The position numbers and the translations under genes were made by a program. Below the pieces are notes generated by a model. That model searched no databases, was not told where the DNA came from, and saw only the letters and a program-made list of their open reading frames with translations. DNA of 63,910 nucleotides, counting the filler, from Licmophora abbreviata (Eukaryota), in assembly GCA_900291995.1 (NCBI GenBank). It is 10 parts of 10 records of this genome, joined end to end, with 100 filler letters (N's around TTAATTAATTAA, not from the genome) between each part and the next. Parts side by side here need not be neighbours in the genome. Positions count along the whole stretch, not along the records: positions 10,507 to 19,556 come from OLMU01003992.1; 9 more parts are not named here. One strand, 5' to 3'. Positions 6,322 through 50,125 of the stretch are shown here, in pieces. Position 1 is the first letter of the stretch. Each line of letters begins with the position of its first letter.

Positions 6322-7214
6322 ATGACGGCCGCGGCTCTTTCGTGGGGCTGTGCCTTGCTGGCGTTTGCTCCATTCCTTTCGTTGCTCTTCGTTGTGTGTT
6401 ATCACAAGGCCCAGCTTGTCATCGTCGTGACGACGTCCGCATTTGCCTTTTTGCTGAGTTCGCTGGGAGCATCTCTGATTTGGTTCTTGTTCGACTTGGT
6501 CGGCTTGGGCGACCACGCCCTTCTCATTCTCCTTCCAGGAATTCTCGCTCAGTTCGTTGGAAGATGCGCGTTTACCAGAATCTATCACACGGTCGAGAAA
6601 GTCATCGAAATCAGCATTCAGCGTCACGAACAACACACGGACGAATTTCAAGAAACCATGAAGCTGCGACTCGAATTGAACGACTGGGCCTGCGGACTGG
6701 CGGCAGGCACGGCTTTGGTGGTATGCATGCCGTCTTACTCTATGGAACTCTCTTGGCGAGCGAATCCAACAATTTAGGAGTCTTGTATCAACCGAGCTGT
6801 CCCGGAATGCCCAGTCTGGTGGTCAGTGCCTTGAACACCTTCCTCTTTAGCATTCTCGACGTCGTCTGGATGCTACTGACATTCTATGGCCTTCGACAAC
6901 GTGAACTGAACTTACCAGAAGATTCTTCCACCTACCATCATCGACGGTGGGGTGCACTCTTGCAAAGATCCAAAAAGGGTGGAACAACTGCCTTGAAGGT
7001 GGTCTTACTCTCACACGCCGCCGCTTCCTTCACGACGACTGCCAACGGTTGGGACAGTGGCTGTGTCGTGTCACTGCCCGTGTTGACATGTATTACAATC
7101 GGGACGGTCGCTGCCTTTTGGGGAGGTGTGTCCAAAGTCTATCTTCCCATCAATCAGCGAGAACGCAGTGCGGCAGGGGAGAACCGCGAGACGCATGCAT
7201 TTCATGGTGAGTGA
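6322..7214 (+). CDS. APH1: Gamma-secretase subunit APH-1 (frameshift at ~6711, probably a missing G)
   Basis: N-terminus MTAAALSWGCALLAFAPFLSLL matches APH-1. Adding one G restores AAGTGFGGMHAV (GxxxG) and joins the second frame (LYQPSCP...SALNTFLFSILDVVWM...SHAAAS). Confidence 0.8.
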
Positions 7215-7791: not shown

Positions 7792-9225
7792 ATGACACTA
7801 TTGACACCATTTCTTCAACGCAAACAAGCTAGCACTATGCCTTTTCCCGTTACAAAGCCTACGATTCGACGAAAATGTCTTGGAACCGCCTCTGCAGCCC
7901 TCGGGGTGGCCTTTTTGATGGCAGCAGGCCATAATCGTGGAGTGCTGGGCTTCTCTAGCAGACCTTTGCCAACATTCACGCATACCGTGCCCAAGACCAA
8001 GGCCAATCCTACGTCGTCCGTCTTCCGACCAGCCCTTCCTCGCACTCGACTTTGGGAGCAGCCCGATCAGCTCATCGACGTGGAGGTAGTGAGCGACGCC
8101 ACCGATGGTGCAATGGCCAATCCCACCATGTCAAAGAAGAAATCTACCGACCCGACTCCAGCCCTGGCTAAATACTTCAAGGACCAGAAGCATGCAGCTT
8201 CGGTCGCGGCCATTGCCGCCCTGGCGATGTCCCTCGTTTTGACTCCGCTTCCATCCTTTGCTGCCATGTCAGGCGGACGCATGGGTGGCTCCTTTTCGTC
8301 TCCATCCCGATCAATGTCGGTACCGAGCTCCCGAGGCTATAGCTCTGGGTATTCACGGGGATTCAGTTCTGGATATGGATCCGGATACTACTCGAGGGGT
8401 CCTAGTGTCTTTGTCTCTCCATATGTGAGTCCTTTCCCGTCCTTCAATCCATTCTACTCTCCTGGATACTATGGTGGAGGAGGCGTTATTGGCTACCGGG
8501 GTCCTGGTCTTTTGACGTTCTTGATGTTTGGTGGCCTCATGCTGGCTGCGACATCCGCCGTGAGCAGCGGTGGACGTGGCCTGACAACTTCGTGGAGCGA
8601 TTCAGATGTCTTTAGCGACGTCGCCGGAACCACAGCACTGGGGAGCGGAAACTCAGTCGTGCAAGTCAGTGTGGCATTGGAAGTTCCCAACCGCGACGAC
8701 CGCAATTCTATCTTGGGAGTGCTCGATCGATTGTCACGTACAGCTCGTACTGACAGCCGTGTGGGCATTCAGAACTTAACGAGTCAAGTGGCGCTGGAAC
8801 TGTTGCGTCGCAAGTCGTCGATTGTTTCTGCGTCGACCAACTACAAGCATTATCGCGATCGGACCAAGGCATTGCGTGATTTCAACGATCGATCTATCAA
8901 GGAGCGTGGAAAGTTCGAGCGGGAAACTGTGAGCAAATATGGCGGCGTCGATTATGGTCAAGGTGGGGATAGCTCACGAGGGGTAGATGGAAAGGCCACT
9001 ATGGTTGTAGTGACACTGCTCTTGACGATCGATGGAGACAGCACCAGCGTTCCGACTATTCGCTCGGCCAACGATGTTGAAGAGGCGCTACGAAAAATTG
9101 CTGCAGATGCCAAAGTTGACGACTGCCTCCAAGGCGCTGAGATTCTGTGGACGCCCGAGGATCGATCCGAGACATTGTCGCCCCGAGATGTTGTTGCCGA
9201 CTACCCTGAACTTCGATCTATCTAA
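7792..9225 (+). CDS. DUF1517 family protein (FLAP1-like), probably plastid-targeted; exact start uncertain (7792, 7837 or 7918)
   Basis: AMSGGRMGGSFS Gly/Ser-rich motif, a TM segment, then SVVQVSVAL...LELLRR...ERGKFERET...EILWTPEDRSETLS, the DUF1517 pattern. Confidence 0.85.
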   Translation: MTLLTPFLQRKQASTMPFPVTKPTIRRKCLGTASAALGVAFLMAAGHNRGVLGFSSRPLPTFTHTVPKTKANPTSSVFRPALPRTRLWEQPDQLIDVEVVSDATDGAMANPTMSKKKSTDPTPALAKYFKDQKHAASVAAIAALAMSLVLTPLPSFAAMSGGRMGGSFSSPSRSMSVPSSRGYSSGYSRGFSSGYGSGYYSRGPSVFVSPYVSPFPSFNPFYSPGYYGGGGVIGYRGPGLLTFLMFGGLMLAATSAVSSGGRGLTTSWSDSDVFSDVAGTTALGSGNSVVQVSVALEVPNRDDRNSILGVLDRLSRTARTDSRVGIQNLTSQVALELLRRKSSIVSASTNYKHYRDRTKALRDFNDRSIKERGKFERETVSKYGGVDYGQGGDSSRGVDGKATMVVVTLLLTIDGDSTSVPTIRSANDVEEALRKIAADAKVDDCLQGAEILWTPEDRSETLSPRDVVADYPELRSI

Positions 9226-9739: not shown

Positions 9740-10406
9740 TCACCTCCCATTACCACCACCGCCACGCCCGGCACGTCCTCCACCACCCCGATCTCGGGAT
9801 CCGCGGTTGCGCGACGACGGGCGGCCTCCGCTCGAGCCATTTCCACTAGTACCACCGTCCTTTGGCGATCCACTGCGACGTCTCGATCGTCCGCCACGAG
9901 ATTTTTGCTCGACATCCAGCATGCGCCCATTCAACGAGAGCTGATCTTTTCGTTCCAGAGCCAAGAGCACCGGAGCCGGCGAGTCGAAATCGACAAATCC
10001 CAGTCCGCGACTCCCTGAGACGTTTGTTCCCATAATCTTCGCCTTTGTTTCTTTCGCAAATGGTTCAAACAGAGTCCGCACATCGCCCTCATTCATGTTG
10101 TCTGTCACGTTCTTGATGACAATCGTGCACTCGGGGTCTCGCTTGGGACGATTCTGCGTCGACTTTGAAGCTTCACTCGCTGCCGGTTTCATCCCCGTTG
10201 AAACATCTTTAGGAGGCGGCACTGCCTTTGTCATTTCCTTGTCGGCTACCTTCGGCGGCGCACGGACAGGAGATTGTGTCTTGGGAGTGTCACCGCCACT
10301 GGCGACCAAGCTAGCCCATGAGTTCGTCGCCGGCTTCTTCGGTATGGCATTCGTGGGGGACGGCGATTTCCTTCGTCCATCCTTCTTCGACTTTGACCTT
10401 CGTCTC
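9740..10406 (-). CDS. 3' part of a G3BP/NTF2-RRM-RGG-like RNA-binding protein (5' end lost in gap)
   Basis: TNSWASLV motif, RRM with TIVIKNV (RNP2) and RGLGFVDF (RNP1), RG/RGG-rich tail. Confidence 0.7.
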
Positions 10407-10506
10407 NNNNNNNNNNNNNNNNNNNNNNNNNNNNNNNNNNNNNNNNNNNNTTAATTAATTAANNNNNNNNNNNNNNNNNNNNNNNNNNNNNNNNNNNNNN
10501 NNNNNN
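10407..10506. other. Assembly gap linker N44-TTAATTAATTAA-N44. Identical linkers at 19557-19656, 27395-27494, 31791-31890, 38829-38928, 41495-41594, 43887-43986, 48220-48319 and 62511-62610
   Basis: Exactly 100 nt each, with a palindromic all-frame stop linker in the middle. Confidence 0.97.
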
Positions 10507-10868
10507 GGCCGATCGTCAGCGGCGTAGGCCCTCCTCCTGGCGGAGGGGTCGGCGGGCCACCACTGGAAGAAGGGGACGTCGTCGCCATGGCGCCGTCTCA
10601 CACCCCCGACACCAACAACGGGCAGCGAGAGCACTGTGGTCTCATCGACGTGGGCAACAACAACACGGCGCGCATCGCACTTTTTGGCCAGCATATGGTT
10701 TACGTACAATTCTACATGACATCAGTACTGACGACCACGAGTGGCTCAGCACCATCCATTCAGTTCTGCGTGGACTTCTACGTAGTTGATCGATTTGGAC
10801 CAATCAGCAGCTCATGGACACTTCTTGAGAACTCTAACGAGCCAGCCACCCCAATTGAGGAAAATTGA
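10507..10868 (+). CDS. Possible 3' fragment of an unknown gene after the gap
   Basis: Open frame from the gap edge to TGA at 10868 (Gly/Pro-rich, then beta-strand-like); no recognised family. Confidence 0.3.
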
Positions 10869-11063: not shown

Positions 11064-11522
11064 ATGTCTTGCTCTTGTACTTCTTTCCTCCGGGGCTGTG
11101 TCGGTGTCTCTGTGACGCTGTGCTTCCTCTTGTTGGCCATCTTTGAGGCCGCCCTCGCCGTCCATGCGCCCATTATCGAGAAGGTGTCCGTGAATGAACT
11201 TCCTTTGGCCCTTCGCTATGTCAGCGGTGTCGCTTCTTTCCTTTGGATCTTCGCAATGGCTGTCATCGTCCAACGCTCGGGTCTCGCCAACCTCGGACTG
11301 TCGTACGATTTCGCCCTTTGGGCTACCTACGGACTGACTGCTGGGTGGATCGCCTGCACTGTCCTCAATGTCATGTCGGATAGCCGAGTTGAACGTGAGA
11401 TCTGGGGACCCGTCACCAGTGGTCTTGGTCTCCTCTGCCTTTTCCTGTCTTGTTCAGGATCGGAGGAGGAAGAAGAGGAAGAGCGTACCGGCATGGAGGA
11501 GCCCCTTTTGCGAGTGGTATAG
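11064..11522 (+). CDS. 4-TM membrane protein, tandem array copy 1
   Basis: FEAALA..LRYVSGVASFLWIFA..QRSGL..GL..EREIWGPVT; acidic tail ending MEEPLLRVV. Confidence 0.85.
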   Translation: MSCSCTSFLRGCVGVSVTLCFLLLAIFEAALAVHAPIIEKVSVNELPLALRYVSGVASFLWIFAMAVIVQRSGLANLGLSYDFALWATYGLTAGWIACTVLNVMSDSRVEREIWGPVTSGLGLLCLFLSCSGSEEEEEEERTGMEEPLLRVV

Positions 11523-12347
11523 ACACATCAGCTGCTTTCTCCTACTAAACGATCACACAGCTGGACGAAGGAATGGACGTTCCGTCAGAGCTTCTGGCGT
11601 TTCGTCGTTCTGCATACATGGCGTTAGGATTGTAACATAGAACATTTTACGAGAAGATGTGTCAAGTTCTGTCGTCCAATATTTATCTTTCTAGGTTGCT
11701 ACGAATCACAAAGGGAAGATGTTGATCTTTTCTGAAGACTTCAGTCACGATGCCCAATCACGCAATACACTATAGGGCGTACACGAGCGCCGCGCCGTCC
11801 ATGCTCAAGTCAGACATCACGAAAGCGGATCACACCAAGGTTCCAAGGTCTTGCTTCGCCGCTTGCTCGTATTCTATCCAATCAAATAATAGTACCAAGT
11901 CGCACTCGCACTCGCACTCTGTTGTCATTCGGTGCAATATCGGAATCTCGGTCTTTCCGATCGCGAGTAGTCTAGCATGGTCCCATGTATACTACTAGTT
12001 GGTCCAAGGTAGTTTAGGAAGCGATAAATCATTCGAGAGATAGAAAGTGCCTCGTAGTTCGGAAACTTAAATCCATAATCAATGGGCTCTCATGTACACT
12101 ATAATTCCTTGTGCCTGGGCGCTAATAGACGGAGATGACACACTCGCCTCCGACTCGTGACTCAATTCTCGGCGGACTCGGGACTTTTTGGCGCGCAACT
12201 TTGAGACACGAGATGAAGTTTGAAGTTAGTTGGCGCGCTCGCGCCGGTTGGAAGGCGCACCTGTGAGAAAATTTGAAAGACGTCATTAGGTAGATTCCAC
12301 GTCGGAACTGGTACATGGACCGTTGGATGCGTTGAGTTGGGCGGGAA

Positions 12348-12374
12348 GTTGTTGTTGTTGTTGTTGTTGTTGTT
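12348..12374 (+). repeat. (GTT)9 microsatellite upstream of array copy 2
   Basis: Nine perfect GTT units followed by degenerate units. Confidence 0.9.
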
Positions 12375-12447
12375 GCTGTAATTGCTGTTGTTGTGTAACA
12401 CGACCACATTCAGACGAATGCCGAGGCGCGGATGCATCGAAAGTACC

Positions 12448-12990
12448 ATGATTGCTCGGCTCCTCCTTCGTGCTGCGGCATCTATCGTCGCTAGTTCCTT
12501 CCTTTTCCTAAGCGTGTTCGAAGCCTCCCTCGCGGTCGAGACCCCGATAGCCGGAAAGGCATACAGCGACGTTGCGGACGACAATGATACGGTGGTCATG
12601 CTGCGATGTGCCAGTGTCGTGGCTTCGATTCTCTGGCTGTTTGCTGCTGTGATCTTTATTCATCATTCTGGACTTTTTGACTGTGGTCTCTCGTCAGACA
12701 TTTCGACCTTGACCGCTTGGGGCATCTCGGTCGGATGGAGTGTTTGCAGCGTTCTCTACATCGCACCGTCAACCACTGGCAAGTGGACCATATATCACCC
12801 ATACCCTGTGACACTACTACTTGCCGCAACATGCATACTCGTCACTTACAGCGGGCACCCAGAAATATTCGAAGAAGAGGAAGAAGAGCGAGAGGACCAA
12901 CCGCTCATCACAGTATCGTCCACAGTCGAGCGCCAGAAGGAAATACGCGAACCTTTGTTGAAAGCGGATGTGGCTGTGCAGGTTGTTTGA
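12448..12990 (+). CDS. 4-TM membrane protein, tandem array copy 2
   Basis: FEASLA..LRCASVVASILWLFAAVIFIHHSGL..CGL; tail EEEEEEREDQPLI..REPLLKADVAVQVV. Confidence 0.85.
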   Translation: MIARLLLRAAASIVASSFLFLSVFEASLAVETPIAGKAYSDVADDNDTVVMLRCASVVASILWLFAAVIFIHHSGLFDCGLSSDISTLTAWGISVGWSVCSVLYIAPSTTGKWTIYHPYPVTLLLAATCILVTYSGHPEIFEEEEEEREDQPLITVSSTVERQKEIREPLLKADVAVQVV

Positions 12991-13502
12991 TTCCATGCTT
13001 CCCATACAATTCATATCATTGAAGTATATATAAAATGACAAACTTTCTAAGTGTATGTTTCCAACAAGCATCATGGACATACCCTGGTGGATTTGGCTTG
13101 CCTACCAGTAGCTCGTCAAGGCATGTGTTGCGCTCCATAGATTCTCTCTAGCTAGCGTGCACGTTCGAAATCATTGCTCTAGGCCCTCTATTCCTTATTG
13201 TTTGCGAATGGCTGGCAAGCAGATCGACCTACTTTCACAACGGCTCAATTCGAAGTGCATGTCTTGCATCTTCTTTGTCGGTACACCATCACTCGATCGC
13301 ACAGCCGGTCAGACCTCGTCGACCATCATCACTTGTCCCGATGACGTCACATCATCATCATTGTGACCCTTCGATGACCACGATAAATGTCAGTGGCACA
13401 TTCCAAATTTTCCGAGTTGCGATGCCGCGTTCACAATTTTGTTCGGACTTATCAGGACCGCGGCGACACAGGCATCATCAACTGATGCACCAAGAAGCAA
13501 CC

Positions 13503-14063
13503 ATGACAAGTTCAATCGGTCTTTTCTTCCTTCGCTCTGCTGGAATCTTCGTGGCAGGCTTCTTCCTGTTCCTAAGCGTTTTCGAGGCGTCGCTTGCGAT
13601 CGACTTCCCGCTCATCGGCAGAGCGTATCAAGATGGCGACACAAACGAAGACATTCTTACCCTGCTCCGCTGCGCCAGTGTCGTGGCATCCGTACTTTGG
13701 CTCTTCGCTGCAGTGATCTTCATTCACCAGTCACAAATACTAGACTGCGGTCTTCCTTCCGACATTGTCAACCTGACGGCATCGGGTATCACTGCCGGAT
13801 GGGTCATCTGTAGTGTCGTCTACTTTGCCTCGGACAATGTCTCTGAGCGCCAAGCACTTTGTCCCATCACTGTGGCACTCGCTCTTATTTGTGCCTTCAT
13901 TTCATCCCACAATAGTACTTCTTCAGAGACAGGCGAGATGGAGAATGATTGTCAGTACACAATCTTGCCAGAAGAGAAAGTCGTGCCGAAGGCTTCAAGT
14001 CGACTAGAGCAGGACCTAGCCGAACCCTTGCTGAAGGCCCATACTGGAATCCAGATCGTTTAA
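13503..14063 (+). CDS. 4-TM membrane protein, tandem array copy 3 (closest to copy 2)
   Basis: FLFLSVFEASLA..LRCASVVASVLWLFAAVIFIHQS..CGL..ERQALCPIT; tail AEPLLKAHTGIQIV. Confidence 0.85.
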   Translation: MTSSIGLFFLRSAGIFVAGFFLFLSVFEASLAIDFPLIGRAYQDGDTNEDILTLLRCASVVASVLWLFAAVIFIHQSQILDCGLPSDIVNLTASGITAGWVICSVVYFASDNVSERQALCPITVALALICAFISSHNSTSSETGEMENDCQYTILPEEKVVPKASSRLEQDLAEPLLKAHTGIQIV

Positions 14064-14677
14064 TTAAATAGAAAGAACCGTAGTTGTGCAAATTCGCATG
14101 TCAGTTTTCTTCTTGGCGTCTGATGGTGTTGTATGTATAACTACGAAGCACTTCTCCGAGAAGTACTTGATACAGTCTGTAATTCCTGGTAGTCTAAATA
14201 TGCAGGCAGACAGCGAAACCATCATGACCCCATAAAGCTCTTATTGAGCAACAAGCCGACGAGTCGGGGCTGACTTAGACTTACTATAGATAAGCACAAA
14301 GGGAAGGGTGCTGCGATATAGACTCAAGAGATGTTCCCAACGAAACTGAAAATCGTGCGATCGTGCGACTTCAGTCAAATTTTCGGATGCTATTTAAAAT
14401 TTGGTGGGGTTCGCCCCTGACGTCACTGTTGCTACCCGGAGGTGGCATTGCGTGAACCTCTTATTATTGTTCCGTTTATATACTAATGAAAATATGGATA
14501 CGAGACGAGTATTGACCCTCGCATCACGATTTTCGTGTAAACAGGATCCAGATGGCGTCGTGTTCCCGGTATTATGGCTCAACCTCATTCATTGATCCCG
14601 ACAGTAACGACGACGGCGTCCCATCTCAACGTTCCTTTGTCTGTCATTGGACCTTTCCTTGCCTACACTATCCAACC

Positions 14678-15172
14678 ATGCTTCGTTGTGCTTGCCCAGA
14701 AATCGCTGGACTCGGCGTGACCGTCTTCTTTCTCCTTTTGAGCGCCTTCGAGGGAGCGCTGGCTCTTGGATTGGGTTTCGCAAGCGTCGACGACGAATTG
14801 CATAAGATGCCGGCTCCTCTTCGCTGCGCCAGTGTTATTGCTTGTTTTCTGTGGATGTTTGCCGCTGTCATTGTTGTTCAGCGCTCTGGTCTGTTATACT
14901 GTGGTCTCTCCCACGACTTTGTGCGCGCCGTGACTCACGGATTGGCTGCAGGCTGGACGCTCTGCACGTGCCTCCATCTTGCTTCCAGCAACCCCTTGGA
15001 GCGCTGGGGGTGGAGTCCCGTGACTTTGATGCTTGCATCGATTTGCTGGGTTCTTGCGAAGCACAAGAAAGCGAAATCGTCGGACGATGAATTCGAATCG
15101 GACGACGACGAGCTCAAGTTCGACGACGAAGTTGCCGTGGAATTGCAGGAACCTTTCCTCCCTGTGGTGTAA
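14678..15172 (+). CDS. 4-TM membrane protein, tandem array copy 4
   Basis: FEGALALG..PLRCASVIACFLWMFAAVIVVQRSGL..ERWGWSPVT; acidic tail ending QEPFLPVV. Confidence 0.85.
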   Translation: MLRCACPEIAGLGVTVFFLLLSAFEGALALGLGFASVDDELHKMPAPLRCASVIACFLWMFAAVIVVQRSGLLYCGLSHDFVRAVTHGLAAGWTLCTCLHLASSNPLERWGWSPVTLMLASICWVLAKHKKAKSSDDEFESDDDELKFDDEVAVELQEPFLPVV

Positions 15173-15773
15173 AGCTTACTACTAAGGTCAGCAGTCATTG
15201 AACTTCAAAAGGTAATTAACACTATGTTTTAGGATTATTTATTTCAAATTTGAAGTGAGTGTCGTCAATCGTTCTGCGAGGCAATTTCCGGGGAAGACAA
15301 ATTATTTGTTGTCTGAGGGAAGAAATGGTGTCGCTCAATTGGCTTCAGGATCCCACAACCTGTCATTGCAAGGACCTAATTGATTGGTAGCATTTTCCAT
15401 TTGTCCAGATGGTGGATCATCATTCATGTCATGCAGGTTGATGCGATTGATCGATTTGGTCCATCATCGTGTGAAGACTCCGCGAAATCTGCAGAAAAAT
15501 TCTGATGCCGTCGGCCTTCCTGCGCGCCAGCCTTCTCACGGCGCGTGTGCCTCGCGGTGTGTCAACTTTTGTCATCACAACTCACAACATCACAGGACAT
15601 TACACCAGAGGACATCATCATCATTCGCCCACCACATGAAAAGAGATCAAGCTTCTTTCTAAAACCTCCATGAACTGATACCTTTCCTCATTTGACCAAC
15701 ATGGACGGGCCGAAAAAGGCAACTCCTCTCTGAGAAAGTTCCCGCCGTCGTAGTACTCACAGTATCCAGAGCC

Positions 15774-16229
15774 ATGTTTCGTCGCTGCTCACTCCGTCGT
15801 ATCGCTGGAGTTCTTGGCACTTTCGGTTTTCTGTTTACAAGCGTTTTTCAGACAGCGCTTGCTCTTGGAGCTCCCCTCGGCTGGATATCATACGGCGGCT
15901 CGTGGAAGGGCGCAGTGCCTGTCTCCGTCCGATGCGTCAGTGGTGTCGCTGCCGTGGTTTGGTTGTTTGCCGCGGCTGTTGTCCTACAACGCTCAAACCT
16001 AATCATGATCGGGTTGCCCAACACACTAACGCGAAATTCCATCCGTATGTTTGCTGTGATCATGTCATTCGAGTTTGCCTTAAACTGTCTTACTCCCAGT
16101 CGCGCAGAGCTATTGATGTGGGCACCAACCACGTTTGTGATGGCAGTTTCCTGCATTTTCCTTGCCCACACGGGGAACGAAAGGCTCGATGGAGAAGAGC
16201 TATCTTTGCTAGAAAACACGACGACATGA
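15774..16229 (+). CDS. 4-TM membrane protein, tandem array copy 5 (most bacterial-like)
   Basis: FQTALALGAPLGWISYGGSWKGAVP..VRCVSGVAAVVWLFAAAVVLQRS..LNCLTPSRAELLMWAP; tail EELSLL. Confidence 0.85.
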   Translation: MFRRCSLRRIAGVLGTFGFLFTSVFQTALALGAPLGWISYGGSWKGAVPVSVRCVSGVAAVVWLFAAAVVLQRSNLIMIGLPNTLTRNSIRMFAVIMSFEFALNCLTPSRAELLMWAPTTFVMAVSCIFLAHTGNERLDGEELSLLENTTT

Positions 16230-16656
16230 CAGGTGCTTCTTGGTCAGGCCTAGACTGCAACAGTTGGAAATTTCCTCGCGAAGCGCTCAACATTATGCTG
16301 GGTTTGACATTGCGGCCGGAGCAACTGCGTTATCTCTGCCATGAATCGTCCCAAGTATTCATACACAGCGAACATCTTGTGCGCCGCCGCTAGTCTCGGG
16401 CGGCGTTAGCCTTCATCAGTATGTGCTACTCTGTAGTATCTGCATCATATGTTAGCCGAGCCAGCGATCGAAGGAACGAAATACACCCGGAAACAGTGTG
16501 ACTCACTCGACTCAACTCTCGCAACGGATCACGCGCTGCTGAATTGTGGCTCCGCGCTCCGCGATGGTAGTCTAGACTATCGCCACTTTTGGTGACGAGT
16601 CACAGCCGCGACAAAACGCATCATTTCTTGTGACTTTAGGAACCAAAGACGATACA

Positions 16657-17115
16657 ATGGCGACTCTCTCTTCAATCCAATATGTTGCTGGTGTCTTTGC
16701 AGCTTTTGGTTTTGCATTCATCTGTGGATTCGAAATTGCGTACGCTCTGACTGCCGCTGTCACCCATTCCTCGTCGCCAGTCTCGCTTCGTTGGGTCAGC
16801 GGTATGTCTTCATTCTTATGGATGTTCGCTTCTGCGTTGGTTTTGCATCGCTCGGGCTTGGTAGACATCGGATTGAATCCCCTGTACGCACGTGGCGCCA
16901 CATATGGTCTTGCGGCGGCCATGATGGTCGGATTTGGGCTAGTATGTTTCTGCTCGCTCAGTACGTCACGGTGGATATGGGGACCGACGACTCTTATTCT
17001 AGGGATTCTATGTCTCGTTCTTGCTCATCCGAAACCGGAGGAAGAATCCTCACGTGCAAGCAGCAACCCAGAATTCACTAGAGAACCTTTCTTGGCGGTC
17101 GCGGTCGTCATGTGA
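16657..17115 (+). CDS. 4-TM membrane protein, tandem array copy 6
   Basis: FEIAYAL..LRWVSGMSSFLWMFASALVLHRSGLVDIGL..RWIWGPTT; tail REPFLAVAVVM. Confidence 0.85.
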   Translation: MATLSSIQYVAGVFAAFGFAFICGFEIAYALTAAVTHSSSPVSLRWVSGMSSFLWMFASALVLHRSGLVDIGLNPLYARGATYGLAAAMMVGFGLVCFCSLSTSRWIWGPTTLILGILCLVLAHPKPEEESSRASSNPEFTREPFLAVAVVM

Positions 17116-17801: not shown

Positions 17802-18470
17802 ATGGAGCCTACCAACTTGAGGCTCCCCATGGGAGACTCGCCGGACTTTGAGTTGGACGATGGAAAGCTCGAAGTCGAGGAATCACCAAAATGGGGCACT
17901 GTTCCGTTGCTGGCTCTGTTTGTTCTAGCGATATTGACAGTTCATTTCACATGTGTAGTTGTGAACTACATTGTCTGTTTTTATCGCTTTCTTATGGTCT
18001 GGAACCAGATATTTCGAATGCATAGGGTGGAGCAGCAATGGATGCCGACCATTCCATGTTTATCTCAACGCACCATTGAGAATTCATTAGTGTCTCACGT
18101 GTACGAGACTATGTCAACCGCCGAACCCAAGAAAGAGATTGATATGGCTTGTCCAATCTGCCTTGGTGATTTCTGTAGGTAGTGAATAGAAGTTGCTCTG
18201 GTCCTTTCCGGATGCCGTCGAACTAACCCGCGGTCGTTCGCTTCCCATTCCTAAATTCTGTATAACGCAGACAGTACTGACCTCGTGAGTCATGGGCAAA
18301 ACTGTAACCACGTTTTTCACAGAGATTGTATATCAGTTTGGTTACAAAAGCAGCAAAGCTGCCCGTGCTGTCGACAGGATATTGCGTCACAACCCGAGAC
18401 TCCCGAAGAGCTATCAATGCTTTACGAATACTTCAAAATGTCGATTGCGATGGCTGGCCTCTCATCGTAA
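17802..18470 (+). CDS. Transmembrane RING-H2 E3 ubiquitin ligase, 2 exons (17802-18174, 18271-18470)
   Basis: TM segment, then CPICLGDF. Intron 18175-18270 (GTAGGT..CTAAC..CAG). Continuation CNHVFHRDCISVWLQKQQSCPCCR. Confidence 0.85.
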
Positions 18471-18588
18471 TGTAGAAATGGAAATCAACCCAGAGGTCCT
18501 CAGAAGACAGCGGTTGGTTGAGCTCACAAAGAAAGACTTAACTTACTATCGTCGTGTAAACTAAGGAGTTTCATAGCATTGCGTTGCT

Positions 18589-19556
18589 CTAGCTATCATA
18601 GCGTTCCGTCGTCACTTCGTCCAGGTTGAGAATGCCCGATATCGACTGGTTGTGCAGTGCTCGTGCGATAGCTTCTGCGAGCAAAGGAGCTACGTTCAAT
18701 TGTCGAATGTTGGCAGGCAGAGTCTCTTTTCCTACCGAATTCGATACAAGCAAATAGTCCAGCCCCTCCACGGCTTCAATGTTGTCGGTCGACGTAAAAA
18801 CACCGTGTGTCGCCCACATGTAAACGGATTCTGCTCCCGATTCCTTCAACTGCTGCACCCCTGCAACCAATGTGCTCCCAGTACTAATAATGTCGTCCAC
18901 AATAATGCACTTGCGTCCCTTTACATGACCAACGAGTTGAGGTTCAAAGTCTTTCTGGCCTCGGCTCTGTCGGCTCTTGGAAATGAAGGCCATTTCTACT
19001 TCCTCACCACTGAGGCGTTGCAGCACAGTACGAAAGTGGGCGGCACGTTCGACTTGCCCCTCGTGCGCTGCAACAACCGTCACCTTGGGATATTTGAGTT
19101 GACCATCTGTTCCTGACTCTTCCGCCATGGCGACAAGCTCCTCGTGAAAGTAAGCGGCAGCGACCGGTCCCGGAAGGAGATGCTGTATGTGGAAAGTATG
19201 ACGAAGAGAGTTCAAGACTTAGTCAGAGTCAGTTCTTGGAGTGCGGCGACAAACAACAAATCATTTCTCACCTCCACTGGAATCTTCGGTGGGAAGAAGC
19301 CAACGAGCGAGTCATTGTGCAAATCCATACACATGACGTGATCCACCCCGACTTCCTCCAACATGAGAGCCACATCAGCAGCCGCGATAGGTTCTCGCTT
19401 GAGCCGACGGTCCTGGCGGCTGTAGCCATAGTAGGGAATGACGGCTGTCACTGTCTTGGCGTTTGCCCTTCGAAATGTCGAGATCATCAACAAAAGCTCC
19501 ATCAACGCGTCGGAAGACGTGGTGGTGTTAATTATGTAAACATTCTTTCCACGTAC
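18589..19556 (-). CDS. PRS: Ribose-phosphate pyrophosphokinase (PRPP synthetase), 5' end lost in gap; intron 19183-19271
   Basis: [43 protein letters not shown]. Confidence 0.92.
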
Positions 19557-46659: not shown

Positions 46660-48174
46660 CTATTCAAACTCCTCGAAAGCAGCAAACGTGGCATCATCCA
46701 TATGTCCTGACATGCGTGACATAGAACTACGGTACGATCTCAACGAGTCTCTTCGGTACGACGACAATCGCGTCGCTTGGCCCGATAAGTCCTCTTTCGT
46801 AAACAACACGGATGCCCTGCGGAAACCGAGTATTGCCGCCATGCCCGTCAGGATCACGATCAGCTCCAATACGAGAATGTTGTGGAGACTCCCGTCCCGG
46901 AAGGCGATGCAATATGTTGTGCTCGGACTCTGACATGTCACTCGATACGAAAGCATATACCCGAGCGCACTCGAAAGTCCATTCTGAAATTCGATGTTGG
47001 CGAAGGCACCCTCCTTCTCGTAAGCAAAGTAATCGACAAAGACGGACTTTAGGGTGCTCTCAAAGGTGGCGCGACCAACACCTTGCAGCGAATACACTAG
47101 CAGCAATCCGCCTAGGCTCCATCGGTCTAGATCCGGTAGAAGAACGAACGGAAGTGCCACACAACTAAAGGCCGATGCACCCACCATCAACACAGCCCCC
47201 TTTCCAAATCTTCTCACGAGGTAATAATGAAACCACAGACTGCAAGCTGCGGCAACAATGGCACAGAGAGCTGCGAAACCCCCTACGTATTTTGAATTGT
47301 CGTCGTGCAGGACAATCCGCACCGCTTGTCCCGATACGAAAGAATTCAGAAAGGCTCCAGAGAATCCAAATGCGGCATTTAGCCCAATCATATACTTCAT
47401 CTTGGAATCGTCTCGTAGCAGTTGCAGCGCAGCTGTCAGTTTGTACCATACCGACTCGTTACCGCGACCGATTGAGGAAGCTGGTGGATAGTTCTTTACA
47501 CACGTCATCATGCCGAGCGTCGACAAGACAGCGATTGCGGCATAAACACCAAAGATACGAGACCATGCCTTGTCACGTTGCGCCAAAATGGAAGACACTA
47601 AGTGCAGAAATGCTTCTTCCGTCAGATAAATGGCTGCAAAGATTCCCGCTAGCAACGATGTAGACGAAGCCCAGTCACAACTCCCACTAAACAAAGAATG
47701 CTCCTCCGCGGCTTGCGCAAAGTATGCCCCTTGCGAAGTCCAAAATACACCCCCTCCAATGCCTCCTATAGTTGCTCCAAGTAGCACAATCCAAGTTCTG
47801 GCACTGGGATCGCTTCCTGCTAGAACGGCCAGAGTAAAGGACAGCACGTACACACAATAGAGCGACATTCCCAAGACGATTCCATTGCGTGCCCCTAGTC
47901 TTTTTACCACGTATGTCGCCCCCACTAGTGCCGACAGTGTATAAGATAAATACAGCACTCCGGATTGCGTTGCTCCGATTGCTCCCAGCCGTGCCGTTGC
48001 AAGCGCCATGCACGCAAGGACGCAGCAAACATTGGTCGAGGCCAAAAAGGCAAAAACCACGAAATTTAGCACGGTCAGACGAGCTCCCAACAAGTTACGG
48101 GGAGCGACTTCCAGCTGGAGTAGACTGGTTGACTCGGTTGCATGCTGCTGATGAGGCTGCGGATTGCTCTTCAT
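46660..48174 (-). CDS. UNC-93-like MFS membrane protein
   Basis: LGAIG..SGVLY, GARNGIVLG..YCVY, GGGVFWTSQGAYF; about 12 hydrophobic segments; N-terminal ESTSLL. Confidence 0.8.
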   Translation of the reverse strand: MKSNPQPHQQHATESTSLLQLEVAPRNLLGARLTVLNFVVFAFLASTNVCCVLACMALATARLGAIGATQSGVLYLSYTLSALVGATYVVKRLGARNGIVLGMSLYCVYVLSFTLAVLAGSDPSARTWIVLLGATIGGIGGGVFWTSQGAYFAQAAEEHSLFSGSCDWASSTSLLAGIFAAIYLTEEAFLHLVSSILAQRDKAWSRIFGVYAAIAVLSTLGMMTCVKNYPPASSIGRGNESVWYKLTAALQLLRDDSKMKYMIGLNAAFGFSGAFLNSFVSGQAVRIVLHDDNSKYVGGFAALCAIVAAACSLWFHYYLVRRFGKGAVLMVGASAFSCVALPFVLLPDLDRWSLGGLLLVYSLQGVGRATFESTLKSVFVDYFAYEKEGAFANIEFQNGLSSALGYMLSYRVTCQSPSTTYCIAFRDGSLHNILVLELIVILTGMAAILGFRRASVLFTKEDLSGQATRLSSYRRDSLRSYRSSMSRMSGHMDDATFAAFEEFE

Positions 48175-48633
48175 GGTAACAAGAGGTGAAGATTACGACA
48201 GAACCATCATCATCGTGATNNNNNNNNNNNNNNNNNNNNNNNNNNNNNNNNNNNNNNNNNNNNTTAATTAATTAANNNNNNNNNNNNNNNNNNNNNNNNN
48301 NNNNNNNNNNNNNNNNNNNCAGAACCATCATCATCGTGATGGCCTCGTCGGCGGCGCGATATGTTTGATTTATGTGTCGAGACACGTGACCCAGTTTTGA
48401 TCCAGTCACATATAGTCACGACTGAAACGCAGGTAAGGTTACTCACTCAGCGCGAGATTTTGTTTGTGATGTTTTGACCATGAGCGAGTGTGATCACACC
48501 GCAGCATCATATAGATTACGATGCGGCGCTGTGTCCGTTTTCGGAGACCAATTGGACGTTGATCAGGAACTATATCGAAGACCTTACTACAGATTGTATT
48601 GATTTAATGTCTCTTCACGAAGAAATTTCCACA

Positions 48634-50125
48634 ATGAGCTACGAACGAGTACCCTCCACGACGCCGCAACAGGAAGCTGATGCTGCTGATCAGTTCCAAG
48701 ACGGTGGAAGTCTCCGGAACATCATCGTTACTACCACAGAGGCGGATTTCAGTCACAGCCTGCGTTGTCAAAGACGCGTTGTTCGAAACTTTATCATAAT
48801 GACAATTTTGTTCAGTGCCAATCACGGGTGTACGGTTACATGTCTGGCACTCGCTACGGCACGATTGGGTTCCATTGGAGCCTGGCAGTCGGGTACCTTG
48901 TATCTCACGTACACGCTTTCCGCCTTGTTGGGTGCGACCTATATCACCAAGACAATCGGAGGACGCAATGCCATGATGGCCGGAATGGGCCTGTACTGTG
49001 CCTATGTGGGATGTTTCTGGTATGCCTCCGCTGCTTCTAACAGTAGGGAGACTGTCGTGATTCTGGGGGCCGCGATCGGAGGAATCGGAGCTGGATTATT
49101 TGGACTGGCCAAGGGGCCTTCTTTACGCAAGCATCACAAGATCATGCTGCGTGTAATCATCAGGGAACCCGCTCCCGACAGAACTCAACTTCATTTTTGG
49201 CTGGCATCTTTGCGTTCATCTACCTTGTGGAAGAAGTCATCTTGCGATCCTTGTCGACTATTACTGGAAACCACAGGTTGGTCTTGGAAAACTATCTTTG
49301 GGCTGTATACTATCATTGCTATCGTATCGACGATCGGTATGCTCTGGGTACGTAACTACCCTTCCTCTGACCAAGAGTTCACTTCATCAGAGTCCCAATT
49401 TGCGAAAGTGACAGCGGCTGGCCTACTGCTGTGGAAGGACCCGAAAAATGAAGCACATGATTGGATTGAATGCCGTGTTTGGATTTGCGGGTGCCTTTGT
49501 GAATTCATATGTCAACGGCCAAGTCGTGCGGGTCGCTTTGAACGACCCAGACTCAAAATATGTGGGAAGTCTCTCTGCATGGCTGGCCGCTGTCGCTGCC
49601 ATAATGAGTCTCGTGTTGGCACGTGTTTCACAACGAGTCGGAAAGGGACCAGTGTTGGTTTCGGGTGCGATCTGCTTTCTACTTGTGGCATTTCTCTTTG
49701 TTCTGCAGCCGAATATCTCGTCGCAATGGGGGTGGGCTAAATTGCTTCTCGTCTATGCTCTTCAAGGTACAGGCCGTGCCACGTTTGAAAGTACGCTCAA
49801 GGCGACCTTTGCCGATTTCTTTGGTTCGTACGAAAAGGAGGGAGCCTTTGCCAATATCATTCTGCAAAATGGGCTTGCGAGTGCGGTTGGATACGTAATG
49901 ACATTTCGACTCCAGTGTTCTGTACCGAGCTCGTATTGTGTAGAGTATCAAGATGGATCTCTTCACAATGTTTTGGTATTCGAAACTGTTGTGATAGTTA
50001 CGGCGCTGGCGGCAATCTTGGGATACTGGCGTGCGTCCACAATACACCAACACGAGCAAGACGCCAGGGCGGAAGACATGGATCTACGGGAGGACGACAG
50101 TGACGAACCAGTAATTTTAACATAA
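48634..50125 (+). pseudogene. UNC-93-like MFS paralog with three frameshifts (~49100, ~49260, ~49445): pseudogene or sequencing error
   Basis: Colinear with 46660-48174 (GRATFESTLKA, YEKEGAFANI, DGSLHN) once three indels are corrected; two of them are in homopolymers. Confidence 0.65.

What the first reader, a model, noticed from the sequence alone, without database searches (positions are those of the whole stretch)
11064..17115. Six-copy tandem array of an uncharacterised intronless 4-TM protein family
Seen: six same-strand single-exon genes of 151-186 aa, about 0.9-1.4 kb apart, with no assembly gap inside the array. They share F[EQ]xxxAL/LA, R[CYW][AV]S, W[ILM]FA, [RHQ]S-x-[LI]-x3-GL and (ER)..W-x-P-x-T..C. 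The copies are strongly diverged, with copies 2 and 3 closest, yet all ORFs are intact. The TM1-TM2 loop differs in every copy. Inference: an old expansion retained by selection, possibly subunits of a hetero-oligomeric channel or transporter, or a diversified sensor set. I cannot assign any known function, which makes it the best candidate here for an undescribed system.
Basis: partly seen in the sequence, partly recalled or inferred. Interest (0 to 1): 0.78.

Follow-up and report, generated by a model that had tools for sequence, protein, structure and literature searches.

The report
Bacterial membrane gene multiplied in alga
Six neighbouring genes in this alga, probably a diatom, descend from one small membrane-protein gene apparently taken from bacteria; they gained a tail resembling a vacuole address label, one kept the ancestral form and five were remodelled, but what they bind is unknown.

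Summary
The array is real: six intact, intronless, same-strand 4-TM genes, the genome's only family members. Synonymous sites are saturated while replacement sites are constrained. They are not orphans. They belong to an unnamed, widespread bacterial family of about 130 aa (676 clusters), a remote sister of DUF3995 (HHalign 90%). The six copies and 18 tail-bearing relatives (2 from MMETSP) group together among bacterial sequences, nearest an Actinomycetes MAG. Bacteria-to-alga transfer is therefore likely. Eukaryote-type members carry an acidic dileucine-like tail: strict motif in 8 of 24 versus 0 of 114 others. Diatoms use such motifs for vacuolar sorting. Copy 5 keeps the family signature. 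The other five form one clade that swapped Q for E, lost the [WY]GG loop and mostly lost an invariant Asn. Copies 4, 5 and 6 have orthologues elsewhere. In 26 of 80 bacterial loci a PadR-type regulator is adjacent, suggesting inducible small-molecule or envelope protection. Best reading: a bacterial stress-protection membrane protein, retargeted to the vacuole and diversified in its luminal pocket. Function, location and expression are untested.

The parts
11064..11522 (+). Copy 1 (152 aa), derived type: Q->E at the end of TM1, [WY]GG loop lost, TM3 Asn and ER kept; acidic tail ending EEPLL
12448..12990 (+). Copy 2 (180 aa; 190 from the ATG at 12418), most derived (Asn->Tyr, ER lost), sister of copy 3; tail has strict EDQPLI plus REPLL
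13503..14063 (+). Copy 3 (186 aa; ORF open from 13341), derived, sister of copy 2; tail ends AEPLL
14678..15172 (+). Copy 4 (164 aa), derived (Asn->His); orthologues P0006/P0156 at 76% identity; acidic tail ending EPFL
15774..16229 (+). Copy 5 (151 aa), ancestral type: keeps FQ, GAPLG, YGG and the TM3 Asn; orthologue P0008 (50%); strict EELSLL motif
16657..17115 (+). Copy 6 (152 aa), earliest branch of the derived clade; orthologue P0007 (49%); tail ends EPFL
9740..10588 (-). Left boundary, not part of the array: RRM gene whose probable start (10588) lies on the array's contig, divergent from copy 1; the assembly gap falls inside this gene (inferred)
17802..18476 (+). Right boundary, not part of the array: RING-H2-type gene with a GT-AG intron at 18175-18270 on the same contig, showing a eukaryotic context (end coordinate approximate)

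Best explanation
History (well supported): one gene of an unnamed bacterial 4-TM family, a sister of DUF3995, entered an ancestor of this alga, probably from an actinobacterium-like donor. It gained an acidic C-terminal tail with a dileucine motif and was duplicated head-to-tail to six copies, at least partly before this species split from a relative. Copy 5 kept the ancestral residues; the other five descend from one remodelled copy. Mechanism (inferred): the protein sits with both ends in the cytosol. The family's near-invariant residues (Q26, GxPxG...[WY]GG loop, R53, S56, N104, S107, E112, R113; copy-5 numbering) lie at the TM1-TM2 and TM3-TM4 ends and form a ligand pocket on the outer face. 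In bacteria this is a PadR-repressed, small-molecule-inducible protective protein that binds or moves an amphipathic or aromatic compound at the membrane surface. In the alga the tail sorts it to the vacuole or endolysosome with the pocket facing the lumen. Copy 5 does the old job, and the five derived copies (fixed Q->E, new loops, R53/S56/W63/P118 kept) handle other ligands. Shown: array, selection, kinship, asymmetry, motif enrichment, PadR linkage. Inferred: direction of transfer, topology, vacuolar location, ligand binding.
For: Family: 676 clusters at E<=0.001; 144 GTDB stretches, of the 80 kept 68 Actinomycetota and 8 Chloroflexota. Trees: six copies plus 18 tail-bearing rows form one clade (SH-aLRT 95; 86). 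The careful tree puts them with L007 (Actinomycetes MAG), P0010 and P0012 at 99/95, with the derived clade at 99/89. Host context: GT-AG introns in two neighbours on the same contig, and GC3 0.51-0.63 against 0.48-0.61 in 16 other window ORFs. Selection; copy 4 and P0006 76% identical. Signature residues are 88-100% conserved in 82 bacterial-type rows and kept in copy 5 and P0008; Q->E is shared by copies 1-4, 6, P0006 and P0007. Strict [DE]xxxL[LI] in 8 of 24 eukaryote-type tails (1.27 expected by shuffling) against 0 of 114 others. Diatom vacuolar targeting by EGTPLL is reported in PMC11085791 (passages). PadR neighbour in 26 of 80 loci, 20 same-strand upstream and 6 divergent; 5 of the 26 were checked and all 5 are PadR plus Vir_act_alpha_C. 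Precedent for a PadR-cotranscribed protective 4-TM protein: BC4207 (PMC2774856, passages).
Against: No expression, localisation or ligand data. Only copies 2 and 5 carry the strict dileucine motif; the wider pattern that covers all six (20 of 24 rows) was chosen after seeing the data. Only 43 of the 114 bacterial-type rows have a tail of 12 residues or more. Only 2 of the 18 'eukaryote-type' rows have a eukaryote source label (MMETSP); the rest were picked by eye. In the careful tree P0051 and P0080 are unresolved against three bacterial rows, and the tree has no outgroup root. 54 of 80 bacterial loci lack the PadR neighbour, including L007, the named bacterial row nearest the algal clade. PadR loci cluster on the tree (10 changes against 22 shuffled), so they are not 26 independent events. 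The GTDB sample was drawn with an actinobacterial-type pattern. The charge bias for topology is modest. Homology to BC4207 was not tested.
Confidence: 0.4

Rival explanations
1. The six are subunits of one hetero-oligomeric channel or transporter, with copy 5 as the active subunit and the derived copies as accessory subunits.
For: A 130-residue 4-TM core is small for transport as a monomer (inference). Asymmetric divergence with long retention fits obligate heteromers. Copies 4, 5 and 6 are all retained in another organism, and P0006 and P0008 both lie on 10,026-bp ENA contigs.
Against: Bacteria carry one copy (5 of 5 genomes; no second copy in 80 loci), and the genome-wide total here is six in one array, as expected from unequal crossing-over alone. 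No fold match to a known channel stands out. The spacers share no conserved block beyond 12-17-nt matches.
Confidence: 0.18
2. The family is a small membrane-embedded enzyme acting on a lipid or hydrophobic substrate. Copy 5 is the active enzyme and the five derived copies are enzymes with altered chemistry or pseudo-enzyme regulators.
For: Near-invariant polar residues Q, R, S, N, S, E, R on one predicted face look like an active site. Zn-dependent dehydrogenases (11 of 80 loci) and SDRs (7 of 80) recur nearby. One hit is fused to an Rce1-like domain (P0125).
Against: No conserved His or Cys for metal or redox chemistry in the 102-row alignment. No structural or sequence match to an enzyme. 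The enzyme neighbours are common genes and lie at varying distances.
Confidence: 0.2
3. They are tetraspanin- or NACHO-like scaffolds or assembly chaperones for other membrane proteins, each copy serving a different client.
For: Best structural matches are CD9 (Z 9.8, rmsd 3.6, 114 aligned), Fc-epsilon-RI chain (Z 9.4) and NACHO/TMEM35A (Z 9.2 and 9.1, near full length, in both models).
Against: These Z values are below the roughly 13 that the tool asks of helical bundles and tie with de novo bundles. Profile comparison with DoxX_2 gives 0.1%. The TM2-TM3 loop is short and faces the cytosol, unlike a tetraspanin.
Confidence: 0.1
4. No new function: the copies are kept for dosage or for split expression patterns, and the derived five are constrained only to fold and traffic.
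For: Five copies lost the family's most conserved loop. Tandem arrays are very common in diatoms (4594 tandem genes in Seminavis; PMC7335047, passages).
Against: The Q->E change is fixed in all seven derived rows, R53/S56/W63/S74/P118 are invariant in all nine array-clade rows, and copy 4 is 76% identical to its orthologue, including parts of its new loop.
Confidence: 0.12

Closest known systems
Unnamed bacterial ~130-aa 4-TM 'hypothetical protein' family (FQxALAxGAPxGxAAWGG...LRxxS...NxxSxSxxER..P)
   Same: Full-length homology: best E 1e-22 against the six-copy profile for bacterial-type rows; 28-44% identity of bacterial P0012 to all six copies; ESM Atlas clusters are 100% bacterial.
   Different: Bacterial members are single-copy, often PadR-linked, and lack the acidic dileucine tail. 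Five of the six algal copies have lost the signature loop.
DUF3995 (PF13160)
   Same: HHalign probability 90.3%, E 1.5e-6, 124 columns over all four helices; 29 of 102 family rows hit PF13160 at E<=1, best 1.6e-6; similar size.
   Different: None of the rows whose scores were shown reaches the 34.3-bit cut-off. DUF3995 has H/Y-W-A-x-G where this family has FQxxLAxG, and lacks the N/S/ER motif as such. DUF3995 itself has no known function.
PadR subfamily-1 operons; BC4206-BC4207 of Bacillus cereus
   Same: PadR gene directly upstream of a small 4-TM membrane gene. BC4207 raises AS-48 tolerance when overexpressed (PMC2774856, passages).
   Different: BC4206 is subfamily 2 (PMC3506622, passages); the regulators here are ~180-aa subfamily 1 with Vir_act_alpha_C. 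Homology of BC4207 to this family was not tested.
Nitzschia sing1 alginate-lyase families (PMC11960938)
   Same: Same evolutionary pattern in a diatom: one bacterial gene, head-to-tail tandem copies, one line keeping the old function, others remodelled and linked to the endomembrane system.
   Different: There a known enzyme with measured activities; here an unnamed 4-TM family with no known activity and only six copies.
Tetraspanins, MS4A and NACHO/TMEM35A
   Same: Four-helix membrane bundle, Z 9-10.
   Different: 7-10% identity, no large cysteine-rich loop, no profile match to DoxX_2.

Membership tests
Unnamed bacterial 4-TM family | Full-length sequence homology | tested here: met
   bacterial P0012 finds all six copies at E 2e-19 to 2e-6.
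Unnamed bacterial 4-TM family | Signature Q26, GxPxG, [WY]GG, R53, S56, N104, E112 | tested here: met
   Met by copy 5 (R113 is Leu) and P0008.
Unnamed bacterial 4-TM family | Same signature in copies 1-4 and 6 | tested here: not met
   Q->E in all five, GG loop lost in all five, N104 kept only in copy 1; R53, S56 and P118 kept. They are derived variants.
DUF3995 (PF13160) | Pfam gathering score 34.3 bits | tested here: not met
   Copy 4 only, E 0.83; P0002 16.1 bits; best family row E 1.6e-6, bit score not shown.
DUF3995 (PF13160) | Remote profile homology over the whole domain | tested here: met
   HHalign 90.3%, 124 columns against 9 members; a 3-member subset gave only 3.7% and a single member 0.7%.
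DoxX-like / NACHO | Profile similarity to DoxX_2 | tested here: not met
   Probability 0.1% against 10 members.
DoxX-like / NACHO | Shared fold | tested here: inconclusive
   Z 9.2, rmsd 3.6, 117 aligned; Z 9.1, rmsd 4.0, 109 aligned; within the range of generic bundles.
Tetraspanin | Large extracellular loop between TM3 and TM4 with CCG motif (definition recalled) | tested here: not met
   TM3-TM4 link is about 4 residues in both models; no CCG in the alignment.
Dileucine-sorted vacuolar membrane protein | [DE]xxxL[LI] in a C-terminal tail | tested here: inconclusive
   Strict in copies 2 and 5 and in 8 of 24 clade rows; EPLL/EPFL variants in the other four copies.
Dileucine-sorted vacuolar membrane protein | LL-dependent tonoplast localisation | not testable with these tools
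   Needs GFP fusions.
Horizontally acquired gene | Nested among bacterial homologues, on a host contig | tested here: met
   (unrooted, about 140 columns); introns in same-contig neighbours.
Hetero-oligomeric channel or transporter | Subunits bind each other and conduct a solute | not testable with these tools
   Needs co-purification and transport assays.

The most novel reading that the evidence does not exclude
An undescribed bacterial family of PadR-controlled toxin-binding or transporting membrane proteins was captured by diatoms, moved to the vacuole by a newly gained dileucine tail, and radiated into a set whose luminal pockets differ, with a shared Q->E switch that could couple them to vacuolar pH. 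This would be a vacuolar system for sequestering or sensing bacterial or aromatic small molecules, with a new 4-TM ligand-binding mechanism.
Probability: 0.15. Interest if true: 0.75.

Novelty: new variant of a known kind. Interest (0 to 1): 0.46.

Why it matters
It gives an unnamed, widespread bacterial membrane family its first handles: kinship with DUF3995, a PadR subfamily-1 partner that makes the inducing molecule findable, and a candidate pocket. In the alga it is a compact natural experiment: one ancestral-type copy beside five remodelled ones, each with a putative sorting tail, so retargeting and neofunctionalisation of a transferred membrane protein can be tested directly. The pattern itself (transfer, tandem duplication, divergence) is already known in diatoms, which limits the surprise.

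Tried and rejected
Expression: no RNA holder listed; one run with a 0.06 word share. Laid, it gave 8 short contig pieces, several intergenic; no evidence either way. Homodimer prediction of copy 5, residues 1-136: no answer, score 0.00, alignment not used; not evidence for or against binding. Orthologue DNA for cross-species dN/dS: the first metagenome scan confirmed 0 of 97 candidates; the second gave 28 loci, all bacterial-type with GC 0.63-0.73. Foldseek against PDB and BFVD: nothing at E<=0.001. PDB sequence search with the 102-row profile: best E 1.2. NCBIfam and PADLOC: nothing meaningful. Plasmid and phage collections: no match. SWEET/MtN3 (E 0.068, copy 1 only): rejected as chance. Longer forms: 4 hits, including joins to a transposase and an MFS protein that look like read-through of neighbours; a weak search. 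Bacterial contamination: rejected. Assembly artefact or alleles: rejected, since synonymous sites are saturated and the spacers are unrelated. A seventh copy: only a E 0.68 fragment on C1790. Earlier findings of the scan: none. Literature: 'DUF3995' occurs in 1 paper, about another protein; searches showed no description of this family in their listings. An unnamed family cannot be searched by name, and supplementary tables of diatom HGT catalogues were not examined and may list members.
Full report
Observation. The six ORFs are there as described: 11064-11522, 12448-12990, 13503-14063, 14678-15172, 15774-16229 and 16657-17115, all on the + strand, single-exon, 883-1384 bp start to start, with no N run among them. 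Fourteen columns besides Met1 are invariant in 6 of 6. Identity is 22-47%, highest for copies 2 and 3. AlphaFold gives four long helices for copy 5 (pLDDT 91.9) and copy 1 (87.4). Two searches of the 29-Mb own genome found these six and nothing else of significance.

Host and boundaries. The array lies on one contig with a RING-H2-type gene and a PRPP synthetase gene, each with a GT-AG intron (18175-18270; 19183-19271), so it is eukaryotic DNA. GC3 of the copies (0.51-0.63) matches 16 other window ORFs (0.48-0.61). The host is probably a diatom: two window genes begin with a signal peptide followed by AF, as in complex-plastid presequences (motif recalled). This was not confirmed by a taxonomic tool. 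On the left, an RRM gene appears to start at 10588 on the - strand and span the gap, so six is probably the full count.

Selection. In the TM core all 15 pairs have pS 0.67-0.83, near the random level, against pN 0.29-0.52, and every bootstrap interval for pS-pN is above zero (protein-guided alignment, dS saturated, so no exact ratio). The spacers share only 12-17-nt matches. Copy 4 is 76% identical to P0006/P0156; copies 5 and 6 match P0008 and P0007 at about 50%. These duplications are older than a split from another organism. P0006 and P0008 both sit on ENA contigs of 10,026 bp, which hints at a conserved array, but I could not read those contigs.

Family. The six-copy profile finds 676 clusters at E<=0.001, of which the best 150 were listed. 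Most are about 130-aa proteins with FQxALAxGAPxGxAAWGG...LRxxS...NxxSxSxxER..P. A GTDB scan confirmed 144 of 177 candidates; of the 80 kept, 68 are Actinomycetota and 8 Chloroflexota (the pattern came from an actinobacterial-type alignment, so this is biased). No Pfam or NCBIfam model is met. 29 of 102 rows hit DUF3995 at E<=1, and the profile matches nine DUF3995 members at 90.3% over 124 columns, against 0.1% for a DoxX_2 control. Smaller DUF3995 inputs scored 3.7% and 0.7%. So this is an unnamed sister family of DUF3995, not a member. Structure searches give only generic 4-helix matches (CD9 Z 9.8; NACHO Z 9.1-9.2).

Origin. I picked 18 hits by eye as eukaryote-type from their tails, then built a tree of 138 of 161 rows (23 short rows dropped). 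The 18 and the six copies formed one clade (SH-aLRT 95; 86 in a 43-row tree). In the careful 69-row tree, 22 of the 24 group at 94/80, and all 24 sit with L007 (an Actinomycetes MAG), P0010 and P0012 at 99/95. Only P0051 and P0096 carry a eukaryote source label (MMETSP), which shows that relatives are transcribed. A small eukaryote-type clade inside a large bacterial family is best read as bacteria-to-alga transfer, though the tree is unrooted and short.

Asymmetry. The array resolves as (copy 5, P0008) against ((copy 6, P0007), (copy 1, ((2,3),(4,P0006)))), with the derived clade at 99/89. In 82 bacterial-type rows Q26, G32, P34, G36, G41, G42, R53, S56, N104, S107, S109, E112, R113 and P118 are 88-100% conserved. 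Copy 5 and P0008 keep nearly all of them. All seven derived rows have Glu at 26 and no GG loop, six have lost N104, and all keep R53, S56, W63 and P118. The conserved residues fall at the TM1-TM2 and TM3-TM4 ends, that is on one face. Charge bias modestly favours both termini inside, which makes that face external in bacteria and luminal in the alga (inference).

Tail. Strict [DE]xxxL[LI] occurs in 8 of 24 eukaryote-type tails (1.27 expected by shuffling) and 0 of 114 others, only 43 of which have tails of 12 or more residues. A looser pattern chosen afterwards covers 20 of 24 against 0 of 114. Among the six, copies 2 and 5 are strict and the rest end in EPLL or EPFL. PMC11085791 (passages) states that dileucine motifs such as C-terminal EGTPLL target proteins to diatom vacuoles, citing Schreiber et al. 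2017, which I saw only as a citation. PMC5640241 (passages) gives the plant parallel.

Bacterial context. A PadR-like gene is adjacent in 26 of 80 loci: 20 same-strand directly upstream and 6 divergent. Five were checked and all are PadR plus Vir_act_alpha_C, the size and layout of subfamily 1, whose members include phenolic-acid and vanillate repressors and an efflux-pump repressor (PMC5728393 and PMC3506622, passages). BC4207, a PadR-cotranscribed 4-TM protein, raises AS-48 tolerance (PMC2774856, passages); this is an analogy, homology untested. Against: 54 loci lack PadR, including L007, and PadR loci cluster on the tree. Bacteria carry one copy.

Mechanism and rivals. I favour an inducible protective membrane protein with an outer-face ligand pocket, retargeted to the vacuole and diversified (0.4). 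The history alone I put near 0.8 and the vacuolar location near 0.55. Rivals: membrane enzyme with pseudo-enzyme copies (0.2), hetero-oligomeric channel (0.18), retention without new function (0.12), scaffold or chaperone (0.1).

Novelty. The pattern has a close precedent in Nitzschia sing1 alginate lyases (PMC11960938, passages), and tandem arrays are common in diatoms (PMC7335047, passages). The family, its PadR link, its algal branch and the tail gain were not found in my literature searches (listings and passages only; supplements of HGT catalogues not seen). Verdict: real, selected, a new variant of a known kind, function untested; interest 0.46.

Noticed in passing
window 9740-10588 (-): RRM protein with an RGG-rich end whose probable start lies across the gap; looks like a G3BP/NTF2-RRM gene (recalled), divergent from copy 1 with about 475 bp between starts.
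   Followed up: partly
window 17802-18476 (+): TM-anchored RING-H2-type E3 ligase gene with a 96-bp intron, 687 bp after copy 6; a functional link to the array is untested.
   Followed up: partly
window 12339-12386: (TTG)n microsatellite just upstream of copy 2.
   Followed up: no
window N runs, e.g. 10407-10506: All nine gaps are two runs of 44 N around a 12-base insert (TTAATTAATTAA in the two read), an assembly linker and not biology.
   Followed up: yes
window 6322-6777 (+) and 7792-9225 (+): Aph-1 (gamma-secretase subunit) exon and a DUF1517 gene upstream of the array.
   Followed up: no
window 46660-48174 (-) and 48607-50125 (+): Two divergently arranged ORFs with similar N-terminal sequence (a LATARLG stretch), probably a duplicated membrane-protein pair on either side of a gap.
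   Followed up: no
P0125, P0183 (protein hits): Bacterial family members fused behind an Rce1-like domain (P0125) and behind an unnamed multi-TM domain (P0183); single cases.
   Followed up: partly
L010, L013, L016, L026, L053: A DinB-family gene lies divergently upstream of the family gene in 5 of 80 bacterial loci.
   Followed up: no
L081:4878-5441; L113:1201-1929: Bacterial family genes matched in two frames, probably frameshifted.
   Followed up: no
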